Of a stretch of DNA of 64,000 bases, positions 44,542 to 64,000 are shown one piece after another. The stretch is from Verrucomicrobiota bacterium. GTDB taxonomy: Bacteria; Verrucomicrobiota; Verrucomicrobiia; Opitutales; Seribacteraceae. Numbering within the stretch: the stretch's first letter is position 1; the number at the start of each line of letters is the position of its first letter. The notes beneath the pieces were generated by a model. The model saw only the letters and a list, made by a program, of their open reading frames with translations, did no database searches and was not told where the DNA came from. A program made the position numbers and the translations under genes. The stretch is taken from positions 64,001 through 128,000 of the forward strand of contig JAQBYT010000004.1 of NCBI GenBank assembly GCA_027622665.1. Reading direction: 5' to 3'.

Positions 44542-44557
44542 GCTTCAATCTTTTTGC

Positions 44558-45751
44558 TTACTTGCTCTTTAATTGCGAGATGAGAAAGGCGCTCGGGTTC
44601 TCGTGTTTTACCTTGGGTAGGCCGGGGTAGACGAGTTCGCAATCAACTCCTTGTGCCTTGCAATCCTCCTGCAGCTTCACCCCGAAGTTCGAGGTGTGAG
44701 TTGGGTCCTTCTGAGCTTTCCCCAATGCGGGCGGAGCGTTATAAGTCAGAAATACGGTAGGATCGTCGGGTTTTGGCCTATACTTGGGCCAGCCGCGAAA
44801 CAAGGTGAGTTCGCGCGGGGAAAGGTAAACCTGCTCGCCGGCGATAAGATTTGCCTCCGCCTCGATGATGCGCGACTTGCCCTCGACCGCCGCCCCGATG
44901 GTCCACAGGTGCTCCAAGTCCTGATGCCCGAAGCGGTCCGTCGAAATCTTCCCGACGTCCACGGAGATGGGCTTGCCACCGCTGTTAATAGCACGGACGG
45001 AGGCCCGGTATCGGTAGCGCCCGGCCAGTTTCGTGCGGTCGGTATGGACGCTCACATGCTTGTAGAGTTGGGCTCGAAAAACGAAGGCGTCGCCCTCCAA
45101 CCGGGACCAGGGAACGATGTCTTTGTGGTATACTTTTGGCTTCTTCTCCAGCCATTTCTTGCCCGTGAAGCGTTGCTTCTTTGTCCGCACGTCGACGACG
45201 CCCGGCGGCAAGGCATGGGACAAGGCAAGGGCCGCCGCCTCCTGGTACCGCACTAGATGGACGGCGGAAGTGCCGAGTCCTTCACTGACCTTGTCGAAGC
45301 CTGCGACCAAGTTGTCTTCAGGCAAGAGAGAATTAAGAACCACAGCGACGTCAAGCAGGTCGTGCAACGTATTTTCGTATTCCGTTCGGTTGAGACGACG
45401 AATGGGCACGCGGCCCTCACGCTGATTTTTCTGGGAAGCTTCATGAAGGGCGGCCTCAAGGAAGGTGAGAAAGTTTCCTGGGGCAGCGGGTTCCGGCTGT
45501 TTTTTCTTCTTAGGTGGCATCTCCTGAAGACGCACCCGGTCGAAGACCCGAATCCTCCTCCGTCTCGCATCCTCTGCGTTCAAGTCCGCCTACAAGGCCT
45601 CGAGATTCAGCCCGCCCTTGGCCACATCCGCATCGTGGCAATCAAAACAATGCATTTCAACAAAGGCCATTGGAACGCTCTCCTTGGCGGAAACGTTCAC
45701 CGAGAACCCGGCCAACGGAACGGGTAAACAAATGAATGAACCGAATTTCAT
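44558..45751 (-). pseudogene. Chimera of a broken DUF1592-family 5' part and an alpha/beta-hydrolase C-terminus
   Basis: ATG at 45751 (ATGA-coupled), CFDCH, in-frame TAG at 45590-45592, EMPP, RRLNRTEY; then a switch near 44768 to DDPTVFLTY...DPTHTSNFG. Confidence 0.8.
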
Positions 45752-48072
45752 CGCCGCACGAATAAGTCCGATAGCACAAGGTGAAACATTAAAGTACGGA
45801 GCTTGTAGCTGTCCTTTTTGGCGGCAGCGGTGATGGCTTTGAGGTGGGTGCGGTCGTCCAGGGTCATCACGCGGCGTAGGGCGAAGGTGGCCAGTTGCTC
45901 GACGAAGGCTTCGGCGAACCGGTCGAGGTCCTGTACCAGCAGTTCCTTGAATTCATTCGGACCGGAATAAGCCCGACCATCGGGAAGTTTGCCGGATGCG
46001 TTTACGGGCGGGTTGGCTCCTTGCCCGCCCGGCATGTTTTCCTCCGTGCGCCATTGGCCGATGGCGTTGAAGTTGTCGAAGGCGAAGCCGAGCGGATCGA
46101 TCTTGGCGTGGCAGGATGCGCAGGTTGCGTGGGTGGCATGGGCCTCGAGCTGCTGCCGGATGGTGGCCTTGGGTTGGTCGGTGGGCGTGGGCTCAAGTGG
46201 TTCGACGTTGGGCGGCGGTGGCGGTGGCGTGCGTCCGAAAATGGCCTCGCTCACCCACACGCCGCGATGCACCGGTCTATGCCGTGTGCCGTCCGAGGTG
46301 AGCATGAGCACGGAGGCTTGGGTGAGCACTCCGCCACGATGATCTTGTGGCTGAAGCACCACTCGCTGGAAGCCGGCCTTTTGTAGCGCAGGCATTTGGT
46401 AATGCAGGGCGAGGCGGGAGTTCATAACGGTCCAGTCCGAGACGAGAAACTCGCGCAGAGACAGGTTGTTCTCGAACACCTCGTTGAAGAACTTGGTGGT
46501 CTCCAGGGCCATGCATTGCTCAAGCCACTTGTCGTAGTCCGGGTACAGGTCCATGTCCGGCGGGAACATGCCGACCTTGTGCAGTTGCAGCCACTGGCGC
46601 GGAAAGGCATCGGTGAAGCGGGCGGTCTTGGGATCGGTCAGCATGCGCGTCAACTGGGCGCCCAAGACTTCCGGACGGTGCAACTCCCCCTTGGAGGCCG
46701 CCTCGGTCAGTGCCTTGTCAGGCAGTGAACTCCACAGAAAATAGGAAAGGCGCGTGGCCAGTTCCCAGTCATTTACCTTATACCGGGGCTTGGCCGGGTC
46801 GCCTTCTACTATGTAATAAAAATTCTTCGAGGTCAGGATGCCCGTCAACGCCCCCAGGTAGGCGCTGCGGAAATTCTCGCCCGCATCCAGTTCTGCTTTG
46901 AGCAAATTCTGGTAGCGATCCAGTTCCACCGGGTTAATCGCCCGCCGCCAGGCACGGCTGGCAAAACGATCTAGGCAGGCCTTCGCCTCGGCGAGATCGC
47001 CTTCCTTGTGCGGATACAGCTCGGCCCGTTTTTGCTGCACGACGTCTGAAACAATCGGCCCCTCATATTCCACCTTGTCCACCAGGAGGAGAGGGAACAC
47101 AGGCCGTCCATCGTCGAGCAGCAGCTTGTAGCCGACGGGTTTCTGAGACCGCAAATTCGCCACTTTGCCTATCGCCTTGGGCGTGTGGCTGAGCGTGTGA
47201 CCGTCGTCCAGTTTTCCGGGGACCTCGTTGATGAGGCTGTAACCGCCCTTGTCCAAGGTCACTTGAAACTCAACCGTGATCGGCTTGCCTTCCGCGGCGG
47301 TTACGTCCCGTCCGGTCACGCCCTTTTTCAGGCTGTTGTTCCAAATCGAAAGGTGCGGCATGCGGCCCTTGAAGGAGGGTAGGGCGCTGAGGGTCACGCG
47401 CACCTTGTACAGTCCGGGTTCACGGGCGTTGAATCCTCCCTCGCGTCGGCCGGGAAACAGTAGCCAGCGCTGGCCATCAGGCGCGGTGCGTTCGCCTTGG
47501 TCCACCTTGGGCGTTTTCGTGGGGAAGGCCTCGGCCAGTACCTTTTCCGCGGCCTGAAGGTAGCGTGTCACATGCGAGGGCGACAGGGAGAGCATGGAGC
47601 CGATGCGGTCGAACCCGTGCCAGCGCGGATCCTCGTTCAAGGCCCCCGGCATGCGCGGGTCGAAATGTACACCGAGCAGGTCGTAAACGGAATGGGCGTA
47701 CTCGTCGCGGCTCAACCGGTAATGAGCCACTGGCCCGCGCTTGGCCATGCGTTCGGCTCTTCCTGATTCTATATTTCGGGAAATCCACTCGGCCACCTCG
47801 CCCAGTTCCACGGCGGTGGGTTGATGCTCATCTTCGGGCGGCATTTCGCCCGAGTTGATGCGAAAGAGCACCTCCACCCAAGTTTGCGCCGTGGCCTCCA
47901 CGCCAAATTCGAGCTTCAAGGTATCCAGCCGAAACTTCCCCTTCTGCTTCTCCGCATCGTGGCAGCGCAGGCAGTAGTTCTTGAAAAAAGGAAGAACCTC
48001 CTTCTCGAAGCCAGGGGCAGCCGAGTACACGGAAAAGCCTGCAAGGACCAAGATGGAAGGCAGGAATCTCAT
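45748..48072 (-). CDS. DUF1592/DUF1588-family di-haem c protein
   Basis: [37 protein letters not shown]. Confidence 0.92.
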   Translation of the reverse strand: MRFLPSILVLAGFSVYSAAPGFEKEVLPFFKNYCLRCHDAEKQKGKFRLDTLKLEFGVEATAQTWVEVLFRINSGEMPPEDEHQPTAVELGEVAEWISRNIESGRAERMAKRGPVAHYRLSRDEYAHSVYDLLGVHFDPRMPGALNEDPRWHGFDRIGSMLSLSPSHVTRYLQAAEKVLAEAFPTKTPKVDQGERTAPDGQRWLLFPGRREGGFNAREPGLYKVRVTLSALPSFKGRMPHLSIWNNSLKKGVTGRDVTAAEGKPITVEFQVTLDKGGYSLINEVPGKLDDGHTLSHTPKAIGKVANLRSQKPVGYKLLLDDGRPVFPLLLVDKVEYEGPIVSDVVQQKRAELYPHKEGDLAEAKACLDRFASRAWRRAINPVELDRYQNLLKAELDAGENFRSAYLGALTGILTSKNFYYIVEGDPAKPRYKVNDWELATRLSYFLWSSLPDKALTEAASKGELHRPEVLGAQLTRMLTDPKTARFTDAFPRQWLQLHKVGMFPPDMDLYPDYDKWLEQCMALETTKFFNEVFENNLSLREFLVSDWTVMNSRLALHYQMPALQKAGFQRVVLQPQDHRGGVLTQASVLMLTSDGTRHRPVHRGVWVSEAIFGRTPPPPPPNVEPLEPTPTDQPKATIRQQLEAHATHATCASCHAKIDPLGFAFDNFNAIGQWRTEENMPGGQGANPPVNASGKLPDGRAYSGPNEFKELLVQDLDRFAEAFVEQLATFALRRVMTLDDRTHLKAITAAAKKDSYKLRTLMFHLVLSDLFVRR

Positions 48073-48096
48073 TTGAACGATTCGCTTTTGGCCTGG

Positions 48097-49116
48097 CTAC
48101 TTGAAGACGATTTCAAGTTTTGGCCTTTCCTTTGCAAGCCGGTCAATGCTGTCCCGGTTTACATTCCTTAGGTTCCGGAGCGTTAGTTTGCGAAGGCTCT
48201 TGCTTTTCCCGAGGCTGGCGATCCCTGCCTCGGTGACCTTCGACGCCCCTCCGAGGAGAAACTCCTCCAGTTTCGGCATGGCGGCCACCAACATCAAATC
48301 CTGATCGCTGATGGAGGGGGCATGGCCGAGGTCCAGCTTGAGCAAGGTCTTGATCCTCGTCGCGTGGGCCAAGCCAACCGAGTCCGCTTGACGGTCAAGC
48401 AAGGACAGGTTCCTGAGCGGCAGCTTAGCCAGATAAGCTACAGATTTACCTGAACTTCCCTTGTCCGTACTGCCGATGCCAAGCGAATCAAGTTTCGTCA
48501 ATTTGGACAGATGCCGGGCTCCCTCATCCGTAAAATGGGAATGGGCAAACCAGAACCGGTCAGTGACGCCCACTTTGCAAATGGCTTCCAGTCCCTTGTC
48601 GTTCAAGGGGGTGAAGTGGAAGTTCACGCTCTTTAGGTTCTTTGCCTTGAGGTGCTTGAAACCTTCCCCGGCGCATTTGGATGAGGCAAGCCCGAGGGTA
48701 TGCAGGTTAGTCAAGGCTCCGAAATGCTTGAACCCCTCGTCCGTCACTGTCGTAAGCGTAAGGTTGAGGCTCTCCAGTTCGGTCAGATTGCCCAAGGATG
48801 CCATGCCCGCGTCCGTCACTTCGCAATTGGCCAAGCTCAGTGATTTCAAGGTTAAGACCTTGGTCAGCCACTTCTCGAGCCAGGCATCATTGACCATGTC
48901 GTTCTTTCCTCCCCGTCCCTTCAGCGGATTGTTGCCGTTGTAGAGGTCGATCAACAGCGGATTGCCGGCTTCAAACTCGATCTTGCCCCCGATCCTTTCA
49001 ATCTCGACCTTGAGAGGCTTCCATGTTTCTGCCGGATCCTGCAGTGCGTCGGCGGCAAAGGTAATTGTCCCTGCAAATATCCCAAGCAGGCTGATTCGGA
49101 TGAGGGAAAAGCTCAT
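48097..49116 (-). CDS. Exported leucine-rich repeat protein
   Basis: LxxLxLxx(C/T)xV(T/S)DxG repeats; true start probably the ATG at 49116 (ATGA overlap, signal peptide). Confidence 0.85.
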   Translation of the reverse strand: MSFSLIRISLLGIFAGTITFAADALQDPAETWKPLKVEIERIGGKIEFEAGNPLLIDLYNGNNPLKGRGGKNDMVNDAWLEKWLTKVLTLKSLSLANCEVTDAGMASLGNLTELESLNLTLTTVTDEGFKHFGALTNLHTLGLASSKCAGEGFKHLKAKNLKSVNFHFTPLNDKGLEAICKVGVTDRFWFAHSHFTDEGARHLSKLTKLDSLGIGSTDKGSSGKSVAYLAKLPLRNLSLLDRQADSVGLAHATRIKTLLKLDLGHAPSISDQDLMLVAAMPKLEEFLLGGASKVTEAGIASLGKSKSLRKLTLRNLRNVNRDSIDRLAKERPKLEIVFK

Positions 49117-50042
49117 GGTTTTTTGCGAAGAGAAATTGCCCCGGGGTGAGTCATTCGCACGCTGTACAAAGAAGTTCGCGCGGTGATGAATAGGGTCTTG
49201 AAATCCTTGCCGCCGAAGCAAACATTGGCCGGTCCTTCGGGAACCTCGATGGTTTCGAGTTTCTTGCCGTCGGCGTCGTAGACCTTAACCTGACCGTGGG
49301 TGAGATAGAGGTTGCCCTTTACGTCCACGGCCATGCCGTCGCTTCCCTCATCGATCTTGAATAGCTTCTTGCCCAGTTTCCTGTCTTTGGTCACCGCATA
49401 GCAAGTCACGCTAGGGGCGAGGCCGTGGAAGGCGGGGTCCGGGTGGCGCTTGTGCCCCCCCGTGTCGGCCACGTACAGCCTTGAGCCGTCCGGAGAAAAG
49501 ACAATGCCGTTGGGCATGGCCAAGTCCTTGATTAAGACCTCCACCTTGCCCGAATCCGGGTCGAGCTTGTATACCCAATGCCCCGGGATTTCATGCGGGC
49601 CGCTCAAACCCCAAGGGGGGTCCGTGAACCATAAGGTGCCATCCTTCCCCACGGCCACGTCGTTAGGGGAGTTGAAGCGCATGCCGTCGAACTTGTCGGC
49701 AAGGACTGTCGTGCTTCCGTCCTTTTCGATGCGTATGAGGTTCCGGGCCGCGTGCTGGCAGGATATGATGCGCCCCTGCAGGTCGAGGATGTTGCCGTTG
49801 GCCTGCTCGCTCTTTCGAAACTCCGATAAGCCTCCTTTTTTGCTCCACTGCATGAGCTTGCTGTTCGGGATGTCGGAAAAGACGACCTTGTTCTGTCCCG
49901 GCAACCACACGGGGCCTTCCGTGAACTTCATGTTCCCTGCCAGTTTCCTGACCTTGGCCCCGGGTTCGACCAGGGAGGCTCCTTGCAGGAAGATCACTTG
50001 AAATGAGAGAGCGATGCTCAAGGGAAGGAGGATTCGATTCAT
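49113..50042 (-). CDS. SMP-30/gluconolactonase family protein
   Basis: FTEGPVW, NSPND, FTDP, PNGI.FSPD, DGMAVD. Confidence 0.92.
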   Translation of the reverse strand: MNRILLPLSIALSFQVIFLQGASLVEPGAKVRKLAGNMKFTEGPVWLPGQNKVVFSDIPNSKLMQWSKKGGLSEFRKSEQANGNILDLQGRIISCQHAARNLIRIEKDGSTTVLADKFDGMRFNSPNDVAVGKDGTLWFTDPPWGLSGPHEIPGHWVYKLDPDSGKVEVLIKDLAMPNGIVFSPDGSRLYVADTGGHKRHPDPAFHGLAPSVTCYAVTKDRKLGKKLFKIDEGSDGMAVDVKGNLYLTHGQVKVYDADGKKLETIEVPEGPANVCFGGKDFKTLFITARTSLYSVRMTHPGAISLRKKP

Positions 50043-50062
50043 TTTTATTTTTAGGTTTGAGT

Positions 50063-51238
50063 TCAGTAAATGGGCATGACCATTTTTTGGCCGTGCTTTT
50101 GTTCCTCGATGGAATGGATGCGTTCCTCGGGCGGCATGGAGACGAATTTCCAGCTGTCGGCCTTCACCCGCACGCAGGCCCCTGGCGAATAACCCTTGAG
50201 CAGTTCCTTGAACCGCAGGGTGATTTGCACGCCGCTGCTGCCAGTGACCGGGTGTTTGACCTCATTCCATTTCTCCAGCTTGCAGAACTTGCGGTCGCCG
50301 CGGTGGTACCATGTGCGCAGCGTCTTTTCCGCGCAGGCCACGGCGATGCGGTCATTGCGTTCGCGGCTGAGGTCTTCGATGATTTCCCGGTTCACATCGA
50401 AGAGCGTGATGACCAGTCGCCCGCCGCCGAAGTCGAAAATCTCCATCTCGTCAATCCAGCCGGGCATCCAGCGCTGGCGTTGAAACCTTAGGTGCTTCTG
50501 CCGTTGGCGTCCCGTGGATGCCTTCCATGAGGCTTCATCCAGCCACAGCTCGGTTACCGTAAATTCTCGTTCGGTATTGTAATGGCCGCCCTGGGCCCAG
50601 CCGAGGTTGAACCGTACTGTGGTCCCTGGCTTGATGTCCTTGAGTTCCACCCATCGTCTGTCCCGCCAGACGCGCGTAGTGGCAAGCAAGTCAAAGGTGT
50701 ACGGTGCCTTGATGCCCTGTTCCACCAGTTTCCCGGCAGGCTCGAGGTGTATCTTCTCCTTTTCGATTTCTACGCCCTTTACCTTCCACATTTGGCCATG
50801 CCGGGCGTAATGACTGAAGTCGTCGGTCAGGACCAAGGCGTGGTTTTCCAGCACGATGAGCTTTTGGTAACCCAAGGAGTCGGGGATTGGCGGGATGGTG
50901 TCCTCTTCTCCCTTCGGCGGTAGAAAAAACCAACCGTGTAGGTGCGTGCCCAGTGGTACGTCGCGCAGGGCGGCCCTGGCGCCATTGCGCCAAACGACGG
51001 CATAAGGAAGCAATGCGAAGTAATGCACCGGCCCGGCCCAGTAGCGGTCGCCACCGTCAATCCGTATCCCTCCACGGCGGTTTACGGCGTCCATGTAAAC
51101 CAGCTCGCCGGAAACATATTGGGCCTTTCCCATCGGGGCGAATTCAGCCGGGTCAGGGACGAACTTTTCGTCGGCGGCTAAGGAGGGATTCATCCCCATG
51201 AACGCGAACGCTAATAGCATGTAGAGGGCCCTCATCAC
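50063..51238 (-). CDS. Uncharacterised secreted 'family X' protein, paralogue 1 (most divergent)
   Basis: Signal peptide; GELV..D..NRRG, LRD.PLGT, RWMP.W.D and GSSG shared with the other copies. Confidence 0.85.
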   Translation of the reverse strand: MMRALYMLLAFAFMGMNPSLAADEKFVPDPAEFAPMGKAQYVSGELVYMDAVNRRGGIRIDGGDRYWAGPVHYFALLPYAVVWRNGARAALRDVPLGTHLHGWFFLPPKGEEDTIPPIPDSLGYQKLIVLENHALVLTDDFSHYARHGQMWKVKGVEIEKEKIHLEPAGKLVEQGIKAPYTFDLLATTRVWRDRRWVELKDIKPGTTVRFNLGWAQGGHYNTEREFTVTELWLDEASWKASTGRQRQKHLRFQRQRWMPGWIDEMEIFDFGGGRLVITLFDVNREIIEDLSRERNDRIAVACAEKTLRTWYHRGDRKFCKLEKWNEVKHPVTGSSGVQITLRFKELLKGYSPGACVRVKADSWKFVSMPPEERIHSIEEQKHGQKMVMPIY

Positions 51239-51244
51239 AAAAAC

Positions 51245-52606
<1,362 letters not shown>

Positions 52607-52681
52607 CGTATCTAGGTTTTGAAAGCATCTAAATGGGAAGGCTTTCCTTGTTCAAGGACTATTAAGCGTTTTGGAACCCTT

Positions 52682-53190
52682 TTACCGAGCCACCAAGTCG
52701 GACATGCCGGGTTCCCACTTCAAGGTAGCGACTCGCTTGAGATCTCCTTTCGCTGAAATCCGGTAGGCGGTTAGGCTGGCCCCGGTGGTGGCTGAGACCG
52801 GGAGGAATTTTCCATCGGGGGACAAGGTCAGACCTAGAAACTTGGCTTGCCCGTTATCAAGGACTTGGTAGCTTGCGATCGATCGAAATCTTGTTTGTGT
52901 CCGCGAAAACCCCCGAAGAGATGGTTGCGGTCAGGAGTGACTACCAGATCGGGGGAGCTCAGCCCGATCTTGGACATTCCAGGAGGGAGAACATTGATGT
53001 CCTGTTCGATCTTCAGTTGCCCGTTGGCCTCGCGGCGGTAAGTGGAGAGCCAAATGCCTTGCTCGTTGCTGAAGTAGACCATGGGGAGGGTGGGGTGGTA
53101 GGTCATGTGGCGGGGTCCGGTGCCTTGCGGAGCCTTAGCGTCCTTGGGTTCAAGCGGGGTGATGGCTCCCGTGCTGGTGCCCAACTGGTG
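52682..53190 (-). pseudogene. 3' part of a lactonase-family (Pgl-like) beta-propeller pseudogene
   Basis: GTGPRHMTYHP..VYFSNEQ; frameshift near 52880; then ..GLT/LSPDGKFL..LKWEPGMSDLVAR* with TAA at 52682-52684. Confidence 0.75.
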
Positions 53191-53484
53191 CCCCTTTCAC
53201 CTCAAAAAAACAACAACATTCGATGTACTAAATGTAAATCCTCGCACAATTCCAAAAGTTCAATTATCGATGATAAAACATATAAAACACGAGAAATAAC
53301 TACTCCCGTTTCGTTACTTTGTTTTATTATCCTTCCGTTTTTCCCAAGATTTTAACTTTAAAATTAACTCAAGTTCCGTTAGAAAATAAGAATATTCATC
53401 CTAATGAAATATGTTTTAAATTTTAAATTTCGGTGATATATTAGTTAACTTTTAACAATGGTCGTGTATTAACAGGAGATTGAA

Positions 53485-54549
53485 ATGCCAAAAATAAAGA
53501 AAGTTGTAACGGTTCCGAGTGCGGCGTATGGAGTGGAGTCTAAGTTTTTAAAGTTTTATCAAGCAATGCCAGAGCGTGTGCCACAGGTGGGGGATATTGT
53601 CTATGGTCGGGTTGTGAGTGTTGGTCAGCATTCGAACTTAGAAAATAAATCGGCCAGAATACATATGATTCATAACGGTTCTTTGGGCGTTTTTGTATTT
53701 GGTCACAGATATGCACCTGATTATTATGAAGGTCACGTTCCTGAAGAGCCAGTTGAAAAAGTGGATTTGTTGGCTAGATCAGGTGTTGTTGGAAATGTCA
53801 TTGTAAAAAACTCTTTGGTTAAAGACCCTACAAAAATAGAAGTATTAGGCTATGTCTGTACGGTTGATGGAAACGTTGTAAATACATTAGATTACAACTT
53901 AATTAATCCTCGATTGGTTACGAAAAAGAAATCAAGAGCTAAACTAGTTTTAGTTTGTGGGACGTCGATGAATTCAGGTAAAAGTATGGCTGCGGCAACC
54001 TGTTGCTGGGCACTAAGTAATATGGGCTACACGGTTAATGCATCCAAAGTTACGGGTACAGCTAGTCTGAAAGATATTTTATCCATGAATGATGCAGGAG
54101 CTGATAAATATTTAGATTTCACTTATTTAGGTTATCCCTCAACTTATAAATTAAGTGAAGATAAAATGTTAGATGTTTTTAACAAGATTGATTTAAAGTA
54201 TGCGAACGATCCAAAAAAATTCTGGGTGGTTGAGTTAGCGGATGGTATTTTACAAAGAGAAACGGCTATGTTACTTGCTCATGAAGATGTGAGGTCAAGA
54301 ATACATAAACTTATTTTTTGTTCGTATGATGCATTTGGTGCTATTGGGGGGTTGCAAGTATTGAAGGAAAAATTCGAATTGACACCAGATGCAATTTCGG
54401 GTGTCTGCTCTAGTTCGCCTCTTCATATGAAAGAGTTGTCCGAATTTTCGAATATTCCAATTTTTAATAGTGCGGATGCAAATCTTGATTTCATGAAAGA
54501 GATATTGCTTTCAAAGAAAAAGAGGTCCAAATTAGCATTCCAAAGTTAA
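53485..54549 (+). CDS. DUF1611-like P-loop protein
   Basis: AGGAG SD at 53474; RYAPDYYEG, GTSMNSGKS, KVTGTA..KD, ELADGILQRET. Confidence 0.75.
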   Translation: MPKIKKVVTVPSAAYGVESKFLKFYQAMPERVPQVGDIVYGRVVSVGQHSNLENKSARIHMIHNGSLGVFVFGHRYAPDYYEGHVPEEPVEKVDLLARSGVVGNVIVKNSLVKDPTKIEVLGYVCTVDGNVVNTLDYNLINPRLVTKKKSRAKLVLVCGTSMNSGKSMAAATCCWALSNMGYTVNASKVTGTASLKDILSMNDAGADKYLDFTYLGYPSTYKLSEDKMLDVFNKIDLKYANDPKKFWVVELADGILQRETAMLLAHEDVRSRIHKLIFCSYDAFGAIGGLQVLKEKFELTPDAISGVCSSSPLHMKELSEFSNIPIFNSADANLDFMKEILLSKKKRSKLAFQS

Positions 54550-55391
54550 TTATACATGGTGGTGCAGGTCAGATGGAAGGGAGTTTGTTTTCTTTCAAGC
54601 AATATCATTTAGCACTTTCAAAAATCATCAAAAAAGCATATCCGATTCTTAGAGAAAAGGGTTCAAGAGAGGCGGTGATAAAAGCAATAAAGTTGTTGGA
54701 GGACAATCCGATTTTCAATGCAGGAAAAGGATCAAAATTGCAACGTGATGGGAGGGTTCGAATGTCCTCAGCCATTATGAGTTCAGATGATAGTCGTTTT
54801 TCGGGAGTCATTAATATTAGGAATGTAAAAAACCCAATTCAGATTGCAGATTTATTATCTAAAGAAAAACATACAGTTTTAGGAGGGCGTGAAGCTTGTG
54901 AATATGCACGGAAAAATAATGTGAAATACTTTGATCCAATTACAGAAGACCGTTTAAAAGAATTTAAAGAGAAGCGTTCGGGAGATACGGGAACTGTTGG
55001 GGCAGTTGCGTTAGATGACAAAGGCATCATTTGTGTAGGAACATCAACAGGTGGTGTTGGCTATGAGCTTCCAGGAAGAATTGGGGATAGTGCGACTGTT
55101 GCTGGAACCTATGTCTCGAATATGTGCGGTGTTTCTTGCACAGGAAGAGGTGAACATATTGTTAATTATGCCGTGGCTGCACGTGTTGTCAGTTATGTCG
55201 AATGTGGGAAGTCCTTAAAAGAGGCGGTAACAGAGATTATTGGTGATGGAAATGAAGATTCACGTTATTACGGGCTTATTAGTTTAGATTACCAAGGGAA
55301 TTTTGTTGTTGGAGAAACGGATATGGCGACAGTTTTGTATGCTTCATATGATGGGGAACTGTTTAATACATTTTTCAAAGATCAAAAATAA
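54531..55391 (+). CDS. iaaA: Isoaspartyl peptidase/L-asparaginase (Ntn hydrolase); start codon reads ATT
   Basis: PKLIIHGGAG lies upstream of the ATG at 54573; LED.P.FNAG.GS, G|TVGAVA autocleavage Thr, TSTGG, GRIGDS, TG.GE. Confidence 0.88.
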   Translation: MSIPKLIIHGGAGQMEGSLFSFKQYHLALSKIIKKAYPILREKGSREAVIKAIKLLEDNPIFNAGKGSKLQRDGRVRMSSAIMSSDDSRFSGVINIRNVKNPIQIADLLSKEKHTVLGGREACEYARKNNVKYFDPITEDRLKEFKEKRSGDTGTVGAVALDDKGIICVGTSTGGVGYELPGRIGDSATVAGTYVSNMCGVSCTGRGEHIVNYAVAARVVSYVECGKSLKEAVTEIIGDGNEDSRYYGLISLDYQGNFVVGETDMATVLYASYDGELFNTFFKDQK

Positions 55392-55570
55392 GCTAATATT
55401 GATTCCCGACAGGTGCCTATCCGAAGTGAAAAGGCGTGGACACTTTTAAAATATCAATTTACCGCCATTTTTGTTCAGGGCGGCCTGGATAACTATGGAT
55501 CATCATGGTACGAAGTAATAAACCTTTCTTATGGATGTGCTGCGTAAAAATATTTTTAAATAATTATTGA

Positions 55571-55823
55571 CGGAACTTTACCCGGTTCTCCCCCAGTCGC
55601 TGTGACGTAGAGTAGCGGTTTGGTGTGCGGTGATGACTCGCCCGGAAATGCCCAAGTCGATCTTTTTGGCGACCTTCAAGTCAAGGCCATCTTAGTTCGG
55701 GGCCGCCTTGACGATCCAGAGGGAGTTTGAATTGCTACAAGGCGAATAGACGTAAAAGGGTTTGCCGAAACAACAATGCGAGCATGCCAGTAAGAAACAG
55801 GTCAGAAAGAGGCATCGTGTCAT
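55571..55823 (-). pseudogene. 5' part of the same lactonase pseudogene
   Basis: Hand translation MTRCLFLTCFLLAC...LWIVKAAPN*(TAA 55692-55694)DGLDLKVAKKIDLG..ITAH / frameshift / KPLLYVTATGGEPGKVP; starts 8 nt after the upstream stop. Confidence 0.7.
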
Positions 55824-55830
55824 GGTCTTG

Positions 55831-57054
55831 TTATTGCTTGAAAATATCGGGACTGGGCCAGCGGGTCTCGAAGTCGCCGATCAATTCCTCCTTGGGAGGT
55901 TTGTTCTTGGGCCAGTTGTTCGGGCGGATGCGGACGATTCGACCCGGGCGAAATCCTTCCAGAATCAAGTTCATGGAAAACTTCACTTGGATTCCGCTAC
56001 TGCCGAATGGGGGCTCTCCTTCCGTCTTCTCCACGGCAACGATCTTGCCCTCCATTCCGTCGTGATCAGGCCAATAAGTACGCAGGGTGTTCTCGGCCGC
56101 TGCCATCTGTCCGCCGGAACCCGGCTTGAAGTCGGCGTAAAGCGATTCGTCCATTCCTCCGAACAACGTGACCGTGACGTTGGCGTCCCCAAAATTTCCG
56201 TACTCGATCGCGTCTACCCAGGCGGGCATCCAGCGCAAGCGGATGAAGCGGATGTGCCTTTGTCTCTGGCGTTCCTGGGCGACCTTGACTGCGGCCTCGT
56301 TCAACCAGAGATCGGCAGTATGAAACTCTTGGTAGAGGTATCGGGGATGCCAAGTGAGGGCGAGTTGCACATGAAGGTCTGCGATGGAATTCTTTTCCTT
56401 GGCTTGCCAGAGACCTTCGGCAATCAGGTCGTCGATGCCGAGCAGTTCGCGACCTCGCCAGATGCGGGTTGAGCCGTCGATGGTGACCCTGTGCTCCCCC
56501 CCAAGTCCTTCCTCCCCTTCCTTTCGATCCAGGCTGGCCATCAAGTGGCCCTCGTTCCCGTTGGACGAGGTCGAGTATTTTACGGATTCCTTAGTGAGGT
56601 CCACTCCCCTCAATTTCCAGGCCTTGCCTTGACGAAGGCAAAAGCTCAGATCGTCCTCCAGAAGAATCGCATGATTTTCAGCTGGGGTTGCGGGATCCGT
56701 GCCCTTGGAGTTGGGCACGGCCGAAAGCTTGGGGTCGCAGGGGAGGAAAAATTCCCCATAGAGGATGGTTCCCAAGGGAACGTCCCTAAGATCAGCTGGG
56801 GCTCCTCGATAATAAATCATTCCATAAGGCAACATGGCGAAGTGGTGAAGCCTGCGTTCCCGGAAATAGCCGTCCACGAACAAACGTAGGCTGCCCCGGC
56901 GGTTTACGTGGTCGACGAAAACGAGTTCTCCCCGATAGGCCTTGGCTTTTCCGATTGGGGGAAAATTTCCTTGTTCCGGTCGAAAAGCTTCTTCCTCCGC
57001 CCAAAGCTGAGCGGTCAAGGAGGCAATAAAAGAAAGTAAAAGGAAGCGAATCAC
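55831..57054 (-). CDS. Family X secreted protein, paralogue 2
   Basis: Same conserved blocks as the other copies; GTGA-coupled to the DUF1552 gene. Confidence 0.88.
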
Positions 57055-58406
57055 CCCAAGTCCATGGCCTGGTTGCTGCCGCCGAACTGGTCGCTTTGCA
57101 CGCCCATCTTCTGGGCCATGGACAACAATAGATTGCTCATGTGGGCATCGGCGTTGGCCGGGCGACCGCAGAGGCGGTAGTGAGCTCCCGCGTTGTCGAG
57201 GCTGTAGCCGTCAAAGTGGCCTTTGTTGAAATCGAGGTGCCGTCCATGCTTGATGCCAAGGCCGGTTCCTCCGGCGAGAACAAGAGGCAGGTTGGCGTTT
57301 CCGTGGCTGTGTCCATAGGACATGCCTCCTCCCATGAGGGCCATGGTGGAGTCGAGCAGGGGTTTGCCGTTCAAGTCCTTGGTCTCGGCCAGTCGGCCGA
57401 TGAAGTAGCCGAACTGTTCGAAGGAAAAGGCGTCGCTAAGCGTAAGGTTCTCCATGTGATTGGGGTCGCCGTTGTGGTGGCTGAGTTCGTGACGGGACTG
57501 GGAAATGCCAAGCTCGGGAATGGGAAGCCCTCGGCCCTCGTTGCCGCTGCTGAAGGTGGCGACGCGGGTGGCATCGGTTTGGAAGGCCAGTACCATCAGA
57601 TCGTAAATGGTCCTGAAGTATTCCCCCGCCTGAGTCTGAGGAATGTCTCTATTGGTCCGCTTGCGGTCGGTCTCGGCGATTTTCGGGCGTGGTACGTCGA
57701 GCCAGGCATCAGCCCTCTCGGTGCGAATTTCGGTCTCGCGGACGGAAGTGAGGTACTGGTTCATTCGCCCCTTGTCATCCGCTCCAATTTTTTTCTCCAG
57801 CTTACGCACTTCCTCGAGGTTCGCGTCGAGTACGCTGCCCTTGCGTCGAAGGGCCCGACGCTGGTCATCAGTACCATTCTTGGGTTCCTCGAAAAGGTGA
57901 GCGAAGATTTGCTTGCATCGGCTCATCGCTGGTAAACGGATGCCGTCGGCTGTCCAGGCAAGTGATTCCCCTGCGTTGGCTAGCTCGAGCGAATGAAAGC
58001 GCGTGTGTGGTGCCGTCAGTTCGGCCATTCGTTGGTCAATGGAAATTGTGTTACTGTCCGAGGGGCCAAGTTTGCCTCCGGTCAGCCAGATTTTCTGGCA
58101 GTTGTGGTGATGTCCCAATCCACCCGGGTGGTGGAGGCCGCTGATGGGGGTGACGACGCTTCGGTGCTTCTCGAGGGGTTTAAGGGAACGTGAAAACTCG
58201 TAGTCCGCTCCATCGGCAATAATCTGGTAGTCGAGGGTGTTGACCCCGTTGGGAAGGTAGATGAAGGCGCTTCGGCGAGGCATGATTGGCTCGGCCGCTC
58301 GGAGGGGAGTCATACAGTCGAGGAGGGGGAGGGCAATGAATGTACCGAGTCCTTTCAGGGCGTGCCGCCGGTTGATCAGCCAGGATTGTGTGTTTAGGTT
58401 ACTCAT
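57051..58406 (-). CDS. DUF1552 (HXXSHH) protein
   Basis: [17 protein letters not shown]; close paralogue of 51245-52606. Confidence 0.92.
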
Positions 58407-58412
58407 GATTGC

Positions 58413-60839
58413 TTAGCGTTTTTGGATGAATTCGGACAGGGCCACGGCCCGGACGATGTCCTTAAGTTTGTAGTTCGTTCGTTTCGCTTCTTCAACGATG
58501 GAATGAATGTCTTCTCGGTCATCGATGGTAAGGACCCGGCGAAGGGCATAGGTGCAAAGGTGCTCGACGAAGGCTTTGAGAAAGCGGTCACGGTCCTCGA
58601 TGAGCAGGTTCTTGAACTCGCTGGCATCGCTGAATGTTCTTCCGTCCGGCATCTTACCGCCTGGGTTGACCGGCGGGTTGGACCCCGTGCCCTTTTCTAC
58701 GCGCTCGTGGGTGCGCCATTGGCCGATGGCATCAAACTGGTCGAAGGCCAAGCCGAGGGGGTCGATGTTTTTGTGACAGGCAGCGCAGTTCGGGTTATGG
58801 GCGTGAGCTTCCAGCTTTTGTCTAATGGTCGCCTTGGGGCTGTCCGGCGGGTTCGGTTCGATCGGGTCGACGTTGGCGGGAGGTGGAGGCGGGGTTTTGC
58901 CGAAGATGGTCTCGCTGACCCAGACTCCACGGTGCACGGGGCGATGTCGCGTGCCATCGGAAGTAAGCCCAAGGATCGCCCCCGTGGTGAGAAGTCCGCC
59001 ACGGTTGTCTTCGGGGCGGAGGGCAACCCGCTGAAAGCCTCCCTTGTTCGGTTCGGGGAATCCATAGAAGTCGCACAGGCGAGGGTTGGCCATCGTCCAG
59101 TCGGATTGAAGAAAAGAGTCGATGGCTAGGTTTTGACGGAAGACTTCGTCAAAATATTGAACCACTTCCTCTCGCATGCTGGCCTCCAGCCAGACTTCGT
59201 AGTCCGGATAGAGTTTCAGATCGGGCGGAAACATCCCGAGCTTGTGGAGCTGAAGCCATTGGCGGGGAAAGTCCTCGATGAACCGCTCGATCTTGGAATC
59301 GGCGAGCATCCGGTCTACATGTGCCGCGAGGGCTTTTTTGTCACTAGTCAGTTTGCTCTCTTTTGCCGTATTAAAGAGCGATGGATCCGGCATGGAACTC
59401 CAGAGGAAATAGGAAAGGCGGGAGGCCAGTTCCCAGTCATTGAGTCTTTCGCGGGCTTTGACGTCCCCTTCCACGAGGTAGGTGAAGTTCCGTGAAGTCA
59501 ACATCCCGAGCAGGGCCACCTGATAAGCGTCGAAGACCTTTTCCCCAAGCTTTCGTTCTTCCTCATAGGAACGAAGATAGGGTTGCAGTTCGTTGATCTT
59601 CACTGGGCGGCGCCAAGCCCGTTCAGCGAAATTTTTCAACAGTTGAGCGACTTCCGTACTTGTTGCGTTGTTTTCAGGGAGCAATCCATTGCGGGTTGCC
59701 TTCTCGGACTCGCTTACGATTGGTCCTTCCCATTCGATCCAGTCCAGCAGGACGAAGGAGAAGATGCCGTCCCCCTCCTCGTCGAACATCTTGGGAGCGA
59801 TCGGGTTGAGCAGGGTGGTTTCGCTGCTGTGGGTGAATATGTAGCTGGTGCTGGAAAAGGCGTTTCGGTAATGAGCCCCCTTGCGCCGATCGATGATGTC
59901 GGATGCAATAAGGTTGAAGTCCAGGCTGGCGGGCATCTCCAAGAACACTTCGAATTTGAGGATTTCCGGCTTGTCTTCGGGGCCCATGACATCGAGTTCC
60001 AAAAGTCCCTCGTTGGCCGCCTCAAAAGTCCTCTTGCCAATTCTCAAGTGAGCGACTTGGCCACCTTTGGGACGAATGCCACTGACTTGCATTTTTGCCC
60101 GATAAAGCCCGCTGTGCTCGGGGCCGGTTCTTCCAAACCAATTATGCCTGAAGGCTTGTTGCAGTCGCCCTGGGAAAATCAAGGCACGCAAGGGCCTCTT
60201 GATACCGAATTGATCGAGGTACTTTTGTTGCTGCTTACCTCCATTATAGTGAATGTCCGCTGCCGTCATTCTGACTTTCTTGGCTTCGACCGGCTTGAGC
60301 GGAAAGGCCCGTGCTAGTACGGTTTCGGCGGCCTTGTAGTACCGTTCGACATGCGAGGGTGAAAGTGTAAGCAGGGAGCCGATGCGCTCGAAACCGTGCC
60401 AAAGCGGATCCGCGTTCAACTCACCTGGTTTCGTGGGATCGTAGCGGACGCCCAGGAGATCGTGGACCGTATTCCGGTATTCCTTGCGGCTGAGCCTATA
60501 GTGGGCGACCGGTGGTCGGGCGGCCATACGGGCGGCACGGCCTTCGCTAATTCTGGTGTCAAGCTGGCCAATGACCGATGCGATCTCGCTTTCGGTCGGT
60601 CGGGGTTCTTTTTTCGGGGGCATTTCCCCGGCATTGATCCGTTCCACGATCTCCGCCCAGAGATGTCCGTCCGCGCCCACCTTGAAATCCCGCGAAAGCT
60701 TGTCGATGCGCAAGTCACCTTTTTCCTTCTTTGGGCCGTGGCAACTGATGCAATGGTCGTTGAGGAAACCTTCAAATGATTTGTTGGCCGATAGCAAAGT
60801 AATCGGCAGTGAAATCATCAAAATTATGGCTCTAAGCAT
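58413..60839 (-). CDS. DUF1592/DUF1588-family di-haem c protein
   Basis: [26 protein letters not shown]; paralogue of 45748-48072; ATG at 60839 gives the better signal peptide. Confidence 0.92.
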
Positions 60840-60944
60840 ACTGAAATTTATATTTTCAAAAGGTTCTTGATTCAAATGTTATATGAATGTTCTTAGAGAA
60901 TTCTTTTTTGGGCTCATTGAATAGCTGTCACAATTGACGAGGAC

Positions 60945-62207
60945 TCAATACTTCGGAAAGATGGCAGGAGTAGGAAAGCGTTCTTCAGGCTTGTTTCCTC
61001 CGAGGTATTCCTCACGTGGTATTTGGACCTGTGGCCAGCTTCCTGGACAGATACGGACAACCCGTCCGGGACGGATGCCTTCGATGATCAGGTCGGTCTT
61101 GAATCGAATCCGGATACCGCTGCTGCCAAGCGGAGCATCGCCTTCGAGCCTTGTGACCTCAAGGATTGGGCCTCTGCAGGCCATATGGCCGGGGCCATAG
61201 GCCCCGTGGGTGTGTTTCAAGGTGTTCTCGACGGGATTCATCATTGCGGAAACGTCCTTCTTGAAGTCGGCGTAGAGGGAATCATCCATGCCGCCGAAGA
61301 GGGTGGCGGTAACGGTGGCAGTGCCAAATTTACCATACTCTATGGCATCAACAAAGGCAGGCATCCAGCGGCTCCGGATGAACGCCTTGTGCGTCTCGGT
61401 CTGGTTGCGGGCGGCCCGTTGAATCGAAACGTCGTCGAGCCAGACGTCGGAGACGTGAAAGCGGGTAAAGACACCGTCCGGCGTGGGCCTCCAGGTGATG
61501 CCGAGCAGGACCGCCTGGTCTTTGAGGGATTTCTTTCCGCTCTCAGGCCAAGTGCCTTCGTGGACGAGGTCAGCCACTTGAAGCTTCTCCAGGCCTCGCC
61601 ATATGCGGGTGGCGGCATCGAAGGTCATCGTTTCCTCTTCAGCCTTGGTTCCGCTGTTCTTGGATTCTCGTCGGGCTATGATTTTGCCGGCGCCGTCTTT
61701 GATATTCACCTCCTTCAGCTCCCATACTTTGCCCTCTCGCAGGCAGTGGCTTGCTTCGTCTTCAAGAAGAATCACGTGGTTTTCGGCCGGGGCGATGCCT
61801 TTGCCACTATAGCCGGCGGTCTTGTTGCGGTTGTTGATTGGCAACACGGGTACGGCGGAGAGCTTGGGATCAGGAGGGAGAAAAGCCCGTACGTGCAGCA
61901 CGGTGCCCAATGGAATGTCGCGGAGTTGGGCAGGAGCATTGTGGTAGCGAATGATCCCGTAGGGTAACATGGCGAAGGGGTGCGGCTTGTTTCGAAAGTA
62001 CATGCCTTCACCTTGTATGCGGATGCTGCCGCGACGGTTGGCATGGTCCACGAAAACAAGTTCTCCACGGTAGGAATGTGCCTTTTCAAGGGGAGGGAAT
62101 TTTCCCGTCTCCGGCCGGAACGGTTGTTCCTCGGGGCGTGCATTGGAGACGAGTATGAACAGGACTAGGTGTAGTGTAGAGACCCATCGGGCAAAGTTTA
62201 GTTTCAT
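60945..62207 (-). CDS. Family X secreted protein, paralogue 3
   Basis: Conserved blocks; ends RFPTPAIFPKY. Confidence 0.88.
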   Translation of the reverse strand: MKLNFARWVSTLHLVLFILVSNARPEEQPFRPETGKFPPLEKAHSYRGELVFVDHANRRGSIRIQGEGMYFRNKPHPFAMLPYGIIRYHNAPAQLRDIPLGTVLHVRAFLPPDPKLSAVPVLPINNRNKTAGYSGKGIAPAENHVILLEDEASHCLREGKVWELKEVNIKDGAGKIIARRESKNSGTKAEEETMTFDAATRIWRGLEKLQVADLVHEGTWPESGKKSLKDQAVLLGITWRPTPDGVFTRFHVSDVWLDDVSIQRAARNQTETHKAFIRSRWMPAFVDAIEYGKFGTATVTATLFGGMDDSLYADFKKDVSAMMNPVENTLKHTHGAYGPGHMACRGPILEVTRLEGDAPLGSSGIRIRFKTDLIIEGIRPGRVVRICPGSWPQVQIPREEYLGGNKPEERFPTPAIFPKY

Positions 62208-62226
62208 AAGGATGGATTCCGTCGGT

Positions 62227-63498
62227 CTAGTATTTCGGAAAGATGTCCGGGGTTGGGAAACGTTTTTCGATTCCGTCCCTGGTGTGGTGGATGTATTCTT
62301 CCCGGGGTACTTCCAGTAGCGGCCAACTTTCGGGACGGATTCTTATTACTTTTCCGGGTCTAAAGCCTTCCGTTACGAGGTTGGTCTCGAGACTTACCTC
62401 AATACCACTGCTTCCGGGGGATCCTCTTTTATCGGTTTTTGAAACCTCTATTAAAATCCCCCTGCTTGCCATCTGGGCAGTGCCTGCAGTCCCTCCCGCC
62501 CAATGTTTCAAGGTGTTTTCCGAGGAGGCAAGCATGGCCTTTCCCCCTTTTTTGAAATCGGTGTATAAGGAGTCATCCATGCCACCGAATAGGGTAACGG
62601 TAACTTTGGCCCGTCCAAACTTGCCGTATTCGACCTTGTCCACCCAGCCTGGCATCCAACGGCTCCTGATAAATGCCTTGTGGGTTTCGTTTTGGATTTG
62701 AGCGGCCCGTTCCATGGCAAGTTCATCCAGCCAGATGTCGCTGACGTGAAAGCGTTTGAAGACACCGCCCGGGGTGGGTTTCCAGGTAATGCCAAGAAAG
62801 ACCGTTTGGTCATTGAGATCTTTTTCCCCGTTTTTTGGCCAGGTTTTTTCGTTCATGAGATCGGTGATACATAGTCGTTCCCGTCCCCGCCAAAAACGGG
62901 TGGTTGCGTCGACGGAAAAGGTTTCCTCATGAATCTGCCCTATGCCTGCTTTGGGCTCCCTGCGTGCGACGATCATGCCGGCTTTTTCCTTCAGCTCCAC
63001 TTCCTGAAGTTTCCAGACCAATCCGAGGCGTTTGCAATGGCTTGGCTCGTCTTCAAGTATGTAAACGTAGTTCTCAGCCGGTGCCACGCCTGTTCCTGCA
63101 TTGCCGTATTTTTTTAGCCGGGTGTCGGTGGGTAAGACCGGTACGGCTGATATCTTGGGGTCGGGTGGAAGAAAGGCTTTTACGTGCATCACCGTACCCA
63201 AAGGGATATCCCGAAGATCGGCCGGAGCTCCCTGGTAACGGACCAAACCGTAGGGGAGTAGGGCAAAGGGGGACGGGTCGGTAAATCGAAACTTACCGTT
63301 CCCGTCGATGCGTATACTGCCGCGACGGTTGGCATGATCCACAAAAGTGAGCTCGCCTTGGTAGGAATGAGCCTTTTCCATAGGTGGAAACTTTCCAGCC
63401 TCGGGTCGGAAGGTATCTTGTTCGGCAGGCGCCTTGCAAACGATGGAGAAAATGCCGAGGTGTAGTGTGGCAATCCATCGGATGGGGAATCGTTTCAT
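62227..63498 (-). CDS. Family X secreted protein, paralogue 4
   Basis: Conserved blocks; ends RFPTPDIFPKY. Confidence 0.88.
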   Translation of the reverse strand: MKRFPIRWIATLHLGIFSIVCKAPAEQDTFRPEAGKFPPMEKAHSYQGELTFVDHANRRGSIRIDGNGKFRFTDPSPFALLPYGLVRYQGAPADLRDIPLGTVMHVKAFLPPDPKISAVPVLPTDTRLKKYGNAGTGVAPAENYVYILEDEPSHCKRLGLVWKLQEVELKEKAGMIVARREPKAGIGQIHEETFSVDATTRFWRGRERLCITDLMNEKTWPKNGEKDLNDQTVFLGITWKPTPGGVFKRFHVSDIWLDELAMERAAQIQNETHKAFIRSRWMPGWVDKVEYGKFGRAKVTVTLFGGMDDSLYTDFKKGGKAMLASSENTLKHWAGGTAGTAQMASRGILIEVSKTDKRGSPGSSGIEVSLETNLVTEGFRPGKVIRIRPESWPLLEVPREEYIHHTRDGIEKRFPTPDIFPKY

Positions 63499-63518
63499 AA
63501 GGGTGGAAGTCCCTCGAA

Positions 63519-64000
63519 TCAGTATTTTGGAAAGATATCCGGAGTCGGGAAGCGGTTCTCCGGGCTATTGTTGAAGAGGTATTCCTCCCTGGGGATTTGA
63601 GACTTCGGCCAACTGTCCGGACGGATGCGAACTACCCGTCCGGGACGAATGGCTTCGATAATCTGGTCGGTCTTGAAATCGACTTGAATGCCACTGCTGC
63701 CCAATGGAATGTTGCTTTCCTGTTTGGTGACTTGAACAATCTTTCCACCCGATGCCATGTGACCAGGGCCGTAGTGGCTAGCGGTGTGTTTCAATGTATT
63801 TTCCGCACCGTTTATCTGTCCGCCAATATCTTTTTTGAAATCGTCGTACAGTGCCTGATCCATCCCTCCAAAAAGGGTGAGAGTCGCTGTGGCCTGACCA
63901 AACTTTCCGTACTTTACCTCATTCACATAGGCGGGCATCCAGCGGGTACGGATGAAACTGTTGTTCTTCTGGGTCAGGAAATAGGCAGCGTGTTCAATGG
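63519..64000 (-). CDS. Family X protein, paralogue 5 (5'-partial)
   Basis: Frame runs off the window edge; FIRTRWMPAY..LFGGMD..RFPTPDIFPKY. Confidence 0.85.
   Translation of the reverse strand, partial: IEHAAYFLTQKNNSFIRTRWMPAYVNEVKYGKFGQATATLTLFGGMDQALYDDFKKDIGGQINGAENTLKHTASHYGPGHMASGGKIVQVTKQESNIPLGSSGIQVDFKTDQIIEAIRPGRVVRIRPDSWPKSQIPREEYLFNNSPENRFPTPDIFPKY

What the first reader, a model, noticed from the sequence alone, without database searches (positions are those of the whole stretch)
44558..64000. Candidate undescribed system: array of family X secreted paralogues embedded among DUF1592/DUF1552 modules, an LRR protein and lactonases
Seen: in transcription order on the - strand, X5-X4-X3-DUF1592-DUF1552-X2-lactonase(pseudo)-DUF1552-X1-gluconolactonase-LRR-DUF1592-DUF1592(pseudo), with mostly short gaps or ATGA/GTGA overlaps. 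Both DUF1552 genes are followed directly by an X gene. These DUF1592/1552 copies share subtype motifs ([25 protein letters not shown]) that the pair at 9-13 kb lacks, and that pair has no X neighbour. Known: DUF1592-type haem proteins and HXXSHH proteins are frequent gene pairs of unknown function. Inference: X is a dedicated third component of a periplasmic redox module. The two lactonase families hint at oxidation of a sugar-like substrate to a lactone.
Basis: partly seen in the sequence, partly recalled or inferred. Interest (0 to 1): 0.82.

Follow-up and report, generated by a model that had tools for sequence, protein, structure and literature searches.

The report
Three-barrel partner of a cytochrome pair
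In Verrucomicrobia and Planctomycetes, one branch of a common but unexplained gene pair (a likely two-haem cytochrome and a predicted phosphatase-fold metalloprotein) nearly always carries an unnamed third gene, predicted to encode a secreted three-barrel protein that likely serves as the pair's binding subunit, and this window holds a patchwork of such cassettes.

Summary
The gene order and family X are real. X has no Pfam or NCBIfam match, 469 clusters at 50% identity, and a confident model of three beta-barrels without catalytic or metal-binding signature. It is tied to one clade of DUF1552/DUF1592 pairs in both directions: 63 of 65 informative X loci follow a DUF1552; 17 of 17 informative clade DUF1552 genes in 251 planctomycete genomes are followed by X; 4 of 30 DUF1552 in this genome have X. 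DUF1552 folds like alkaline phosphatases/sulfatases but lacks their nucleophile motif. Lactonases are occasional neighbours (6 of 76 loci; gluconolactonase 0 of 76), so the lactone pathway is weak. Best reading: X is a non-catalytic binding or adaptor subunit of a periplasmic redox module; binding was not tested. The scan found this trio before in another genome (e1-5054777). New variant of a known, function-unknown pair.

The parts
63519..64000 (-). X5, 3' part (gene starts at about 64799, beyond the window, overlapping the stop of a third DUF1552)
62227..63498 (-). X4, family X, 423 aa, hydrophobic N-terminus (read by eye)
60945..62207 (-). X3, family X, 420 aa; model of three beta-barrels, pLDDT 91.7
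58413..60839 (-). DUF1592-type protein of the X-linked subtype (PSCyt1, DUF1587, 1595, 1592, 1588, 1585; two Cxx[10 protein letters not shown])
57051..58406 (-). DUF1552 (HXXSHH) of the X-linked clade; twin arginine; alkaline phosphatase/sulfatase fold
55831..57054 (-). X2, family X, overlaps the DUF1552 stop (GTGA)
55559..55823 (-). 5' remnant of a PF10282 lactonase, frameshifted
   Evidence: tblastn with the intact relative in L014
54573..55391 (+). Asparaginase_2 family gene, low-GC insert, not part of the cassette
53485..54549 (+). DUF1611-like P-loop protein, low-GC insert, not part of the cassette
52685..53175 (-). 3' remnant of the same lactonase, frameshifted
51245..52606 (-). DUF1552 of the X-linked clade (another subclade)
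50063..51238 (-). X1, family X, most divergent copy (30-36% to X2-X5)
49113..50042 (-). SMP-30/gluconolactonase family (PF08450) gene; local accessory, not found in other X loci
48097..49116 (-). LRR protein with hydrophobic N-terminus; 29% to the LRR subfamily that follows X in Verrucomicrobiaceae
45748..48072 (-). DUF1592-type protein of the X-linked subtype, likely partner of the 51245-52606 DUF1552 and X1
44558..45745 (-). broken 5' part of a DUF1592 gene of another subtype, in-frame stop; not part of the X cassette

Best explanation
Family X is the fixed third gene of one clade of DUF1592-DUF1552 pairs, and it likely encodes a secreted, non-catalytic three-barrel subunit that would dock on a periplasmic complex in which the predicted phosphatase-fold, histidine-rich DUF1552 protein would turn over the substrate and the two-haem DUF1592 protein would carry the electrons. 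X would supply substrate or partner recognition through its variable, aromatic-rich loops, so that extra copies (1-4 per locus, or two units fused in one chain) would widen the range. Shown: gene linkage in both directions, one DUF1552 clade, co-divergence of the three genes, predicted folds, no invariant His/Cys in X. Inferred: export, complex formation, redox chemistry, the binding role, and a carbohydrate-derived substrate. The window is a patchwork of three such cassettes of different subclades, not one pathway.
For: X to DUF1552: 60 of 76 loci within 250 nt, 3 within 1 kb, 11 at a contig end, 2 without. DUF1552 clade to X: 17 of 18 genes in 15 of 251 Planctomycetota genomes, the 18th 424 nt from a contig end; both in the same 2 of 201 Verrucomicrobiota genomes, one being this genome. 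DUF1592 subtype to X: 7 of 7 genes in three X-bearing genomes. Controls: 4 of 30 DUF1552 here, 6 of 96 PF07586 matches in five X-bearing genomes. One clade, SH-aLRT 100, 40 of its 41 rows with X (quick tree). X2, X1 and the C42 copy are closest to the X of the cassettes whose DUF1552 is closest, and so is the 45748-48072 DUF1592. Order varies (D-H-X, H-X-D, X next to D) but the genes stay together. X model pLDDT 91.7, pTM 0.90; barrel 3 matches SETX 1B (Z 9.5, 92 aligned, rmsd 3.0), a reductase FAD domain (Z 8.1) and LumP (Z 8.0); barrel 1 matches OB folds weakly (Z 5.0-5.2). In 49 units under 55% identity no His, Cys or Met is invariant (best H249, 40 of 49). DUF1552 matches the alkaline phosphatase superfamily (Z 16.3, 245 aligned, rmsd 3.9) and DUF1501 (prob 98.6); the X-linked clade adds HHNC, YGHS and a C-terminal insertion that most others lack.
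Against: No direct evidence for a complex or for any substrate. Co-divergence also follows from plain co-inheritance of an operon. Copy number of X (1-4) does not fit a fixed stoichiometry. Two remote X-like genes (L162, L163) had no DUF1592/DUF1552 in the stretches fetched, one X (L160) had a DUF1592 but no DUF1552, and one clade DUF1552 (L105) is followed by an unrelated gene, with X-like genes upstream and about 6 kb downstream. The OB matches are under the level that the tool calls meaningful, and barrel 2 was not matched at all. One family member is fused to a CocE/NonD hydrolase (P0271), so X can serve another enzyme. The 76 loci were the best 80 of 424 confirmed stretches, all 68% or more identical to X3, and kin are not independent.
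Confidence: 0.45

Rival explanations
1. X is a maturation or assembly factor: it would help fold, load metal into, or stabilise the DUF1552/DUF1592 pair in the periplasm, then leave or stay as a structural subunit.
For: Strict link to one clade that carries extra His/Cys residues; nearest named Atlas clusters carry DUF5666 and CusF_Ec (score 0.76); one remote Y-type member has a weak CusF hit (E 0.0008, below cut-off).
Against: No conserved His/Met cluster such as a metallochaperone needs (M56 26 of 49, H31 19 of 49); several divergent copies per single pair are more than a chaperone would need; Atlas scores under 0.9 are leads only.
Confidence: 0.2
2. X is co-regulated but works on its own, as a free periplasmic binding protein that feeds the pair or other enzymes, with no stable complex.
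For: Variable copy number and order; fusion to an unrelated hydrolase; a few remote members without the pair nearby.
Against: The link holds across two phyla and four subclades in both directions; no transporter recurs in the loci (clusters; Pfam of 24 neighbours).
Confidence: 0.15
3. The third barrel of X binds a flavin, as in riboflavin synthase, LumP or reductase FAD domains, and X relays electrons between the DUF1552 site and the haems.
For: Most rows of the fold search are flavin-binding barrels (Z 6-8.1); LR(T/S)(Y/W) and GSSG are conserved in this barrel; the partner is a haem protein.
Against: The best match is a helicase domain that binds no flavin; identity 4-16%; the Arg-x-Tyr stretch lies in the loop after strand 3, about 13 residues before strand 4, not on strand 4 as in the FNR motif (recalled), and X3-X5 have Lys there.
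Confidence: 0.1
4. One reading: the whole 19 kb is one pathway that oxidises a sugar-like substrate to a lactone, which the two lactonases open.
For: A specific PF10282 subfamily recurs beside X in separate lineages: 6 of 76 loci, G575, a lactonase-LRR fusion inside a cassette; another lactonase lies two genes after X on contig C42 of this genome.
Against: 70 of 76 loci lack it, four of the six are close kin of this genome; SGL 0 of 76; not labelled in the 20 further regions; no PF10282 gene near X in five other genomes; an 83% identical lactonase sits beside a DUF1553/DUF1501 pair without X; here it is broken and the cassettes are intact.
Confidence: 0.1

Closest known systems
PSCyt3/PSD (DUF1592-type) plus DUF1552 (HXXSHH) gene pair of Planctomycetota and Verrucomicrobiota (PMC5615132, passages)
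   Same: Same Pfam domains above cut-off, adjacent genes, two CxxCH motifs, twin arginine in DUF1552; function unknown there too.
   Different: One clade adds family X as a third gene and has its own motifs; the passages read describe two-gene arrangements only (supplements not seen).
DUF1501 plus PSCyt1/PSCyt2/PSD1 (DUF1549/DUF1553) module (PMC3542564, passages)
   Same: DUF1552 and DUF1501 are homologous; Tat-type protein beside a cytochrome-motif protein; clade-specific extra genes are described for that module, proposed for assembly or substrate recognition.
   Different: Different cytochrome partner; its extra genes (PPC and other domains) are not family X.
Alkaline phosphatase / sulfatase superfamily
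   Same: Fold of DUF1552 (Z up to 16.3).
   Different: No CxPxR motif; a histidine lies near the nucleophile position by sequence register (motif recalled); paired with a haem protein.
DUF5666 and other OB-fold repeat proteins; riboflavin-synthase/FNR-type barrels
   Same: Barrel 1 OB-like, barrel 3 of the reductase/riboflavin synthase type.
   Different: No hit reaches a family cut-off; no solved chain with this three-barrel combination was found (Foldseek best TM 0.20).

Membership tests
DUF1592-type PSCyt3 protein | PSCyt1-DUF1587-DUF1595-DUF1592-DUF1588-DUF1585 architecture with two CxxCH | tested here: met
   for 58413-60839 and 45748-48072
DUF1552 (PF07586) | Pfam match over cut-off, HxxSHH motif, twin arginine | tested here: met
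DUF1592/DUF1552 pair | adjacent co-oriented genes | tested here: met
   6 nt gap at 58406/58413; the second DUF1552 is separated from its likely DUF1592 by X1, SGL and LRR
Alkaline phosphatase superfamily (DUF1552) | core alpha/beta fold | tested here: met
Formylglycine sulfatases (DUF1552) | C/S-x-P-x-R motif at the nucleophile helix (recalled) | tested here: not met
   alignment shows HHHNCxxxWLTG, no P-x-R; no PF00884 hit
Alkaline phosphatase superfamily (DUF1552) | hydrolytic activity on phosphate or sulfate esters | not testable with these tools
   needs an assay
DUF5666 (X) | Pfam PF18914 match over cut-off | tested here: inconclusive
   3 of 89 members, best E 0.014; Atlas 0.76
OB fold (X barrels 1 and 2) | structural match of each domain | tested here: inconclusive
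   barrel 1 Z 5.0-5.2; barrel 2 not matched; domains were not folded alone
CusF-type metallochaperone (X) | conserved His/Met/Met metal site (recalled) | tested here: not met
   no such conserved set in 49 units
FNR/riboflavin-synthase flavin barrel (X barrel 3) | barrel fold | tested here: met
   Z 8.1 and 8.0, 79-93 aligned; same level as a helicase barrel
FNR/riboflavin-synthase flavin barrel (X barrel 3) | flavin-binding motif in register (recalled RxYS/T, GxxS) | tested here: inconclusive
   look-alike stretches exist but seem out of register; no residue-level structural alignment was given
Any family in Pfam, NCBIfam, PHROGs, PADLOC or PDB sequences (X) | significant profile match | tested here: not met

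The most novel reading that the evidence does not exclude
DUF1552-DUF1592 pairs are a large class of periplasmic redox enzymes built on the alkaline phosphatase fold with a histidine-rich metal site wired to two haems, and clade-specific third subunits choose the substrate; family X, an undescribed OB-OB-RIFT three-barrel protein, is such an exchangeable selector, stocked in several copies, with a lactonase and an LRR protein as optional downstream parts for oxidised sugars.
Probability: 0.2. Interest if true: 0.85.

Novelty: new variant of a known kind. Interest (0 to 1): 0.52.

Why it matters
DUF1592/DUF1552 pairs occur in 14-30 copies per genome in these bacteria and their function is unknown (PMC5615132, passages). 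One well-bounded clade with a fixed, soluble, well-folded third partner gives a small unit for pull-down, ligand screening and knock-out. It is present as a single locus in cultured strains such as Limnoglobus roseus and Novipirellula sp. SH528 and in 93 of 121 genomes of the family of Brevifollis. X itself is a large family with no annotation.

Tried and rejected
Complex prediction of DUF1552 with X2: never ran, the queue was full; binding is untested. Mirror-tree statistics over 26 cassettes: the script machine was lost; replaced by identity comparisons. Co-transcription: contigs of four RNA runs cover 23-27 of 30 bins and some bridge the DUF1592-DUF1552, DUF1552-X2 and DUF1552-X1 junctions, but contigs give no strand or level and may hold DNA, so this is not used. 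Promoter and terminator scan: 8 and 30 sites against 10.6 and 27.4 in shuffles, nothing usable. Misassembly of the low-GC insert: rejected, contigs of runs X10 and X13 span its edges. Three of four DNA runs do not cover 44500-49500: not interpreted. Recent local duplication of the array: rejected, the four cassettes of this genome fall in four subclades with planctomycete sisters. A 24-locus neighbour cluster was inflated by other-frame ORFs overlapping X. The 1601-aa DUF1592 ORF in L024 has no Pfam match in its first 800 residues and looks like read-through upstream of the real start. Defence or phage role: no PADLOC or PHROGs hit. PDB sequence searches: nothing under E 0.05. Papers: DUF1592 with DUF1552 0 papers; six wider searches listed no description of a third partner; the library lacks most subscription journals. 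In the tree, L159 is counted twice (frameshifted gene) and L060_12173 is a fragment wrongly labelled as X-linked.
Full report
Observation. The listed genes are all present on the minus strand with short gaps or four-base overlaps. X1-X5 are one family, 30-62% identical. They split the lactonase into two frameshifted pieces. Contigs from other DNA runs span the insert and the X2-DUF1552-DUF1592 stretch, so this is not an assembly error. The final DUF1592 remnant belongs to another subtype and has an in-frame stop. Beyond the window lies a third DUF1592-DUF1552 pair whose stop overlaps the X5 start. A fourth cassette lies on contig C42: a remote X-like gene (Y), DUF1592, DUF1552, X, a PF00144 hydrolase and a lactonase-esterase fusion; Y is homologous to X over its length (prob 97.7). 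The closest named genome is an Opitutales bin and the holders are marine and estuarine metagenomes.

Family X. It has no match in Pfam, NCBIfam, PHROGs, PADLOC or PDB sequences. It has 3546 homologues among 8000 candidates scored and 469 clusters at 50% identity. Some members are two units in one chain, one is permuted and one cluster of four is fused to a CocE/NonD hydrolase. N-termini look like Sec signal peptides without a lipobox (by eye; no predictor was run).

Linkage, forward. Copies per locus: one in 29, two in 35, three in 10, four in 2. These loci are all close to X3, so they are one subclade.

Linkage, reverse and controls. In 251 Planctomycetota genomes drawn by the tool, 18 clade DUF1552 genes (E at most 1e-80) lie in 15 genomes; 17 have X directly downstream and the last ends 424 nt from a contig end (the centre genome was chosen for having X; only 6-7 candidates per genome were scored). 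In 201 Verrucomicrobiota genomes both occur in the same two, one being this genome. All 7 subtype DUF1592 genes in three X-bearing genomes have X within a few kb. By contrast 4 of 30 DUF1552 in this genome and 6 of 96 PF07586 matches in five X-bearing genomes have X directly downstream. On a quick tree of 78 DUF1552 rows the X-linked ones form one clade (SH-aLRT 100; 40 of 41 rows with X). Exceptions: two remote X-like genes without the pair in the fetched stretch, one X beside DUF1592 only, and one clade DUF1552 followed by an unrelated gene. X is in 93 of 121 genomes of the family of Brevifollis and 9 of 41 relatives of this genome.

The array is a patchwork. The four DUF1552 of this genome fall in four subclades with planctomycete sisters. 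X2 is 65-68% identical to the X of the cassettes whose DUF1552 are closest to its own; the C42 X is 50-52% to those of its sisters; X1 and the 45748-48072 DUF1592 are closest to cassettes of the same subclade as the 51245-52606 DUF1552 (47%, 59-60%). So the region reads [D-H-X5-X4-X3] [D-H-X2] [broken lactonase, insert] [H-X1-SGL-LRR-D]. The order H-X-D occurs elsewhere too.

Folds. X3 without its signal gives pLDDT 91.7, pTM 0.90: two beta domains, a long helix, a third barrel and a low-confidence tail. Barrel 3 (253-368) matches SETX 1B (Z 9.5), a reductase FAD domain (8.1) and LumP (8.0); the name RIFT barrel is recalled. Barrel 1 matches OB folds at Z 5.0-5.2, which the tool rates as possibly a common arrangement; barrel 2 was not matched and is called OB-like only from its repeated sequence pattern and the DUF5666 hints. 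Among 49 units under 55% identity the best kept residues are G24, R34, F13, D30, R39, P58, L71 and L306; no His, Cys or Met is invariant; variation sits in four loops rich in Trp, Tyr and His. DUF1552 folds like the alkaline phosphatase/sulfatase superfamily and is homologous to DUF1501. It lacks the sulfatase motif; a conserved His lies near the nucleophile position by sequence register, and the X-linked clade adds HHNC, YGHS and a C-terminal insertion of about 28 residues. The DUF1592 proteins keep two CxxCH, a Met after the first and an invariant His before the second, and the subtype adds RHRPVHRG; haem ligation is inferred.

Accessory genes. The lactonase is labelled in 6 of 76 loci, SGL in none and a same-strand LRR in 12. 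A specific LRR subfamily is a real optional member in Verrucomicrobiaceae: all 19 full-length hits among 121 genomes directly follow an X match, though these are kin; the LRR in the window is only 29% identical to it. The lactonase subfamily was found in 1 of those 121 genomes, directly after X, and in 2 of 251 Planctomycetota, the one examined lying beside a DUF1553/DUF1501 pair without X. One genome fuses lactonase and LRR between DUF1592 and DUF1552. In five other X-bearing genomes no PF10282 gene is near X. So lactonases are enriched but not core.

Mechanism. I commit to X as a non-catalytic binding or adaptor subunit of a periplasmic DUF1552-DUF1592 redox complex (0.45). The gene-level claim alone I put at about 0.9. 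Rivals: maturation factor (0.2), free binding protein (0.15), flavin relay (0.1), single lactone pathway (0.1). The complex prediction could not be run.

Literature. PMC5615132 (passages) states that PSCyt3 genes usually lie next to a family of unknown genes, that nothing is known of their function, and suggests action on mono- or oligosaccharides; its supplements could not be seen and may bear on novelty. PMC3542564 (passages) describes the sister DUF1501 module with clade-specific extra genes. PMC2754498 (passages) lists one stress-regulated DUF1552 gene. PMC13490349 (one passage) gave nothing relevant. Other papers were seen as search listings only; none listed describes X. Earlier notes of this scan report the same trio in another genome (e1-5054777) and an ankyrin third partner for other clades; I took the phosphatase-fold lead from them and tested it here. 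Verdict: new variant of a known, function-unknown pair; interest 0.52.

Noticed in passing
window 53200-55560: Low-GC two-gene insert (DUF1611-like P-loop protein plus Asparaginase_2 peptidase) on the opposite strand, single copy in the genome, no mobile gene beside it; present in several other marine samples.
   Followed up: partly
window 44558-44750: The last ~65 codons of the DUF1592 remnant look like the end of an alpha/beta hydrolase (by eye), suggesting a deletion that fused two genes.
   Followed up: no
L042:11316-12587; A 423-aa secreted LRR subfamily with a non-LRR motif (HDHRKE) whose 19 full-length members in 121 genomes all follow X; fused to a lactonase in L054:1907-4237.
   Followed up: partly
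L160:6824-7900, L162:6933-8732, L163:731-1729, L001:10357-11430: Shorter, remote X-like proteins (Y type), some without the DUF pair nearby; may mark a wider superfamily.
   Followed up: partly
L104:10517-11941: X homologue with rearranged barrels (unit 1, unit 3, then unit 2), supporting three separable domains.
   Followed up: no
window 14319-16586 and 39864-42455: Large likely exported proteins with no Pfam match over cut-off (755 aa; 863 aa with a weak DUF3604 hit).
   Followed up: no
window 44500-51000: Three of four DNA runs that cover the rest of the array lack most of this part, so the X1 cassette end may vary between strains.
   Followed up: no
L025, L035, L070, L081 (e.g. L070:6146-6979): A ~277-aa gene with a GxxExxY-like motif (name recalled) sits between DUF1592 and DUF1552 in four loci.
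   Followed up: no
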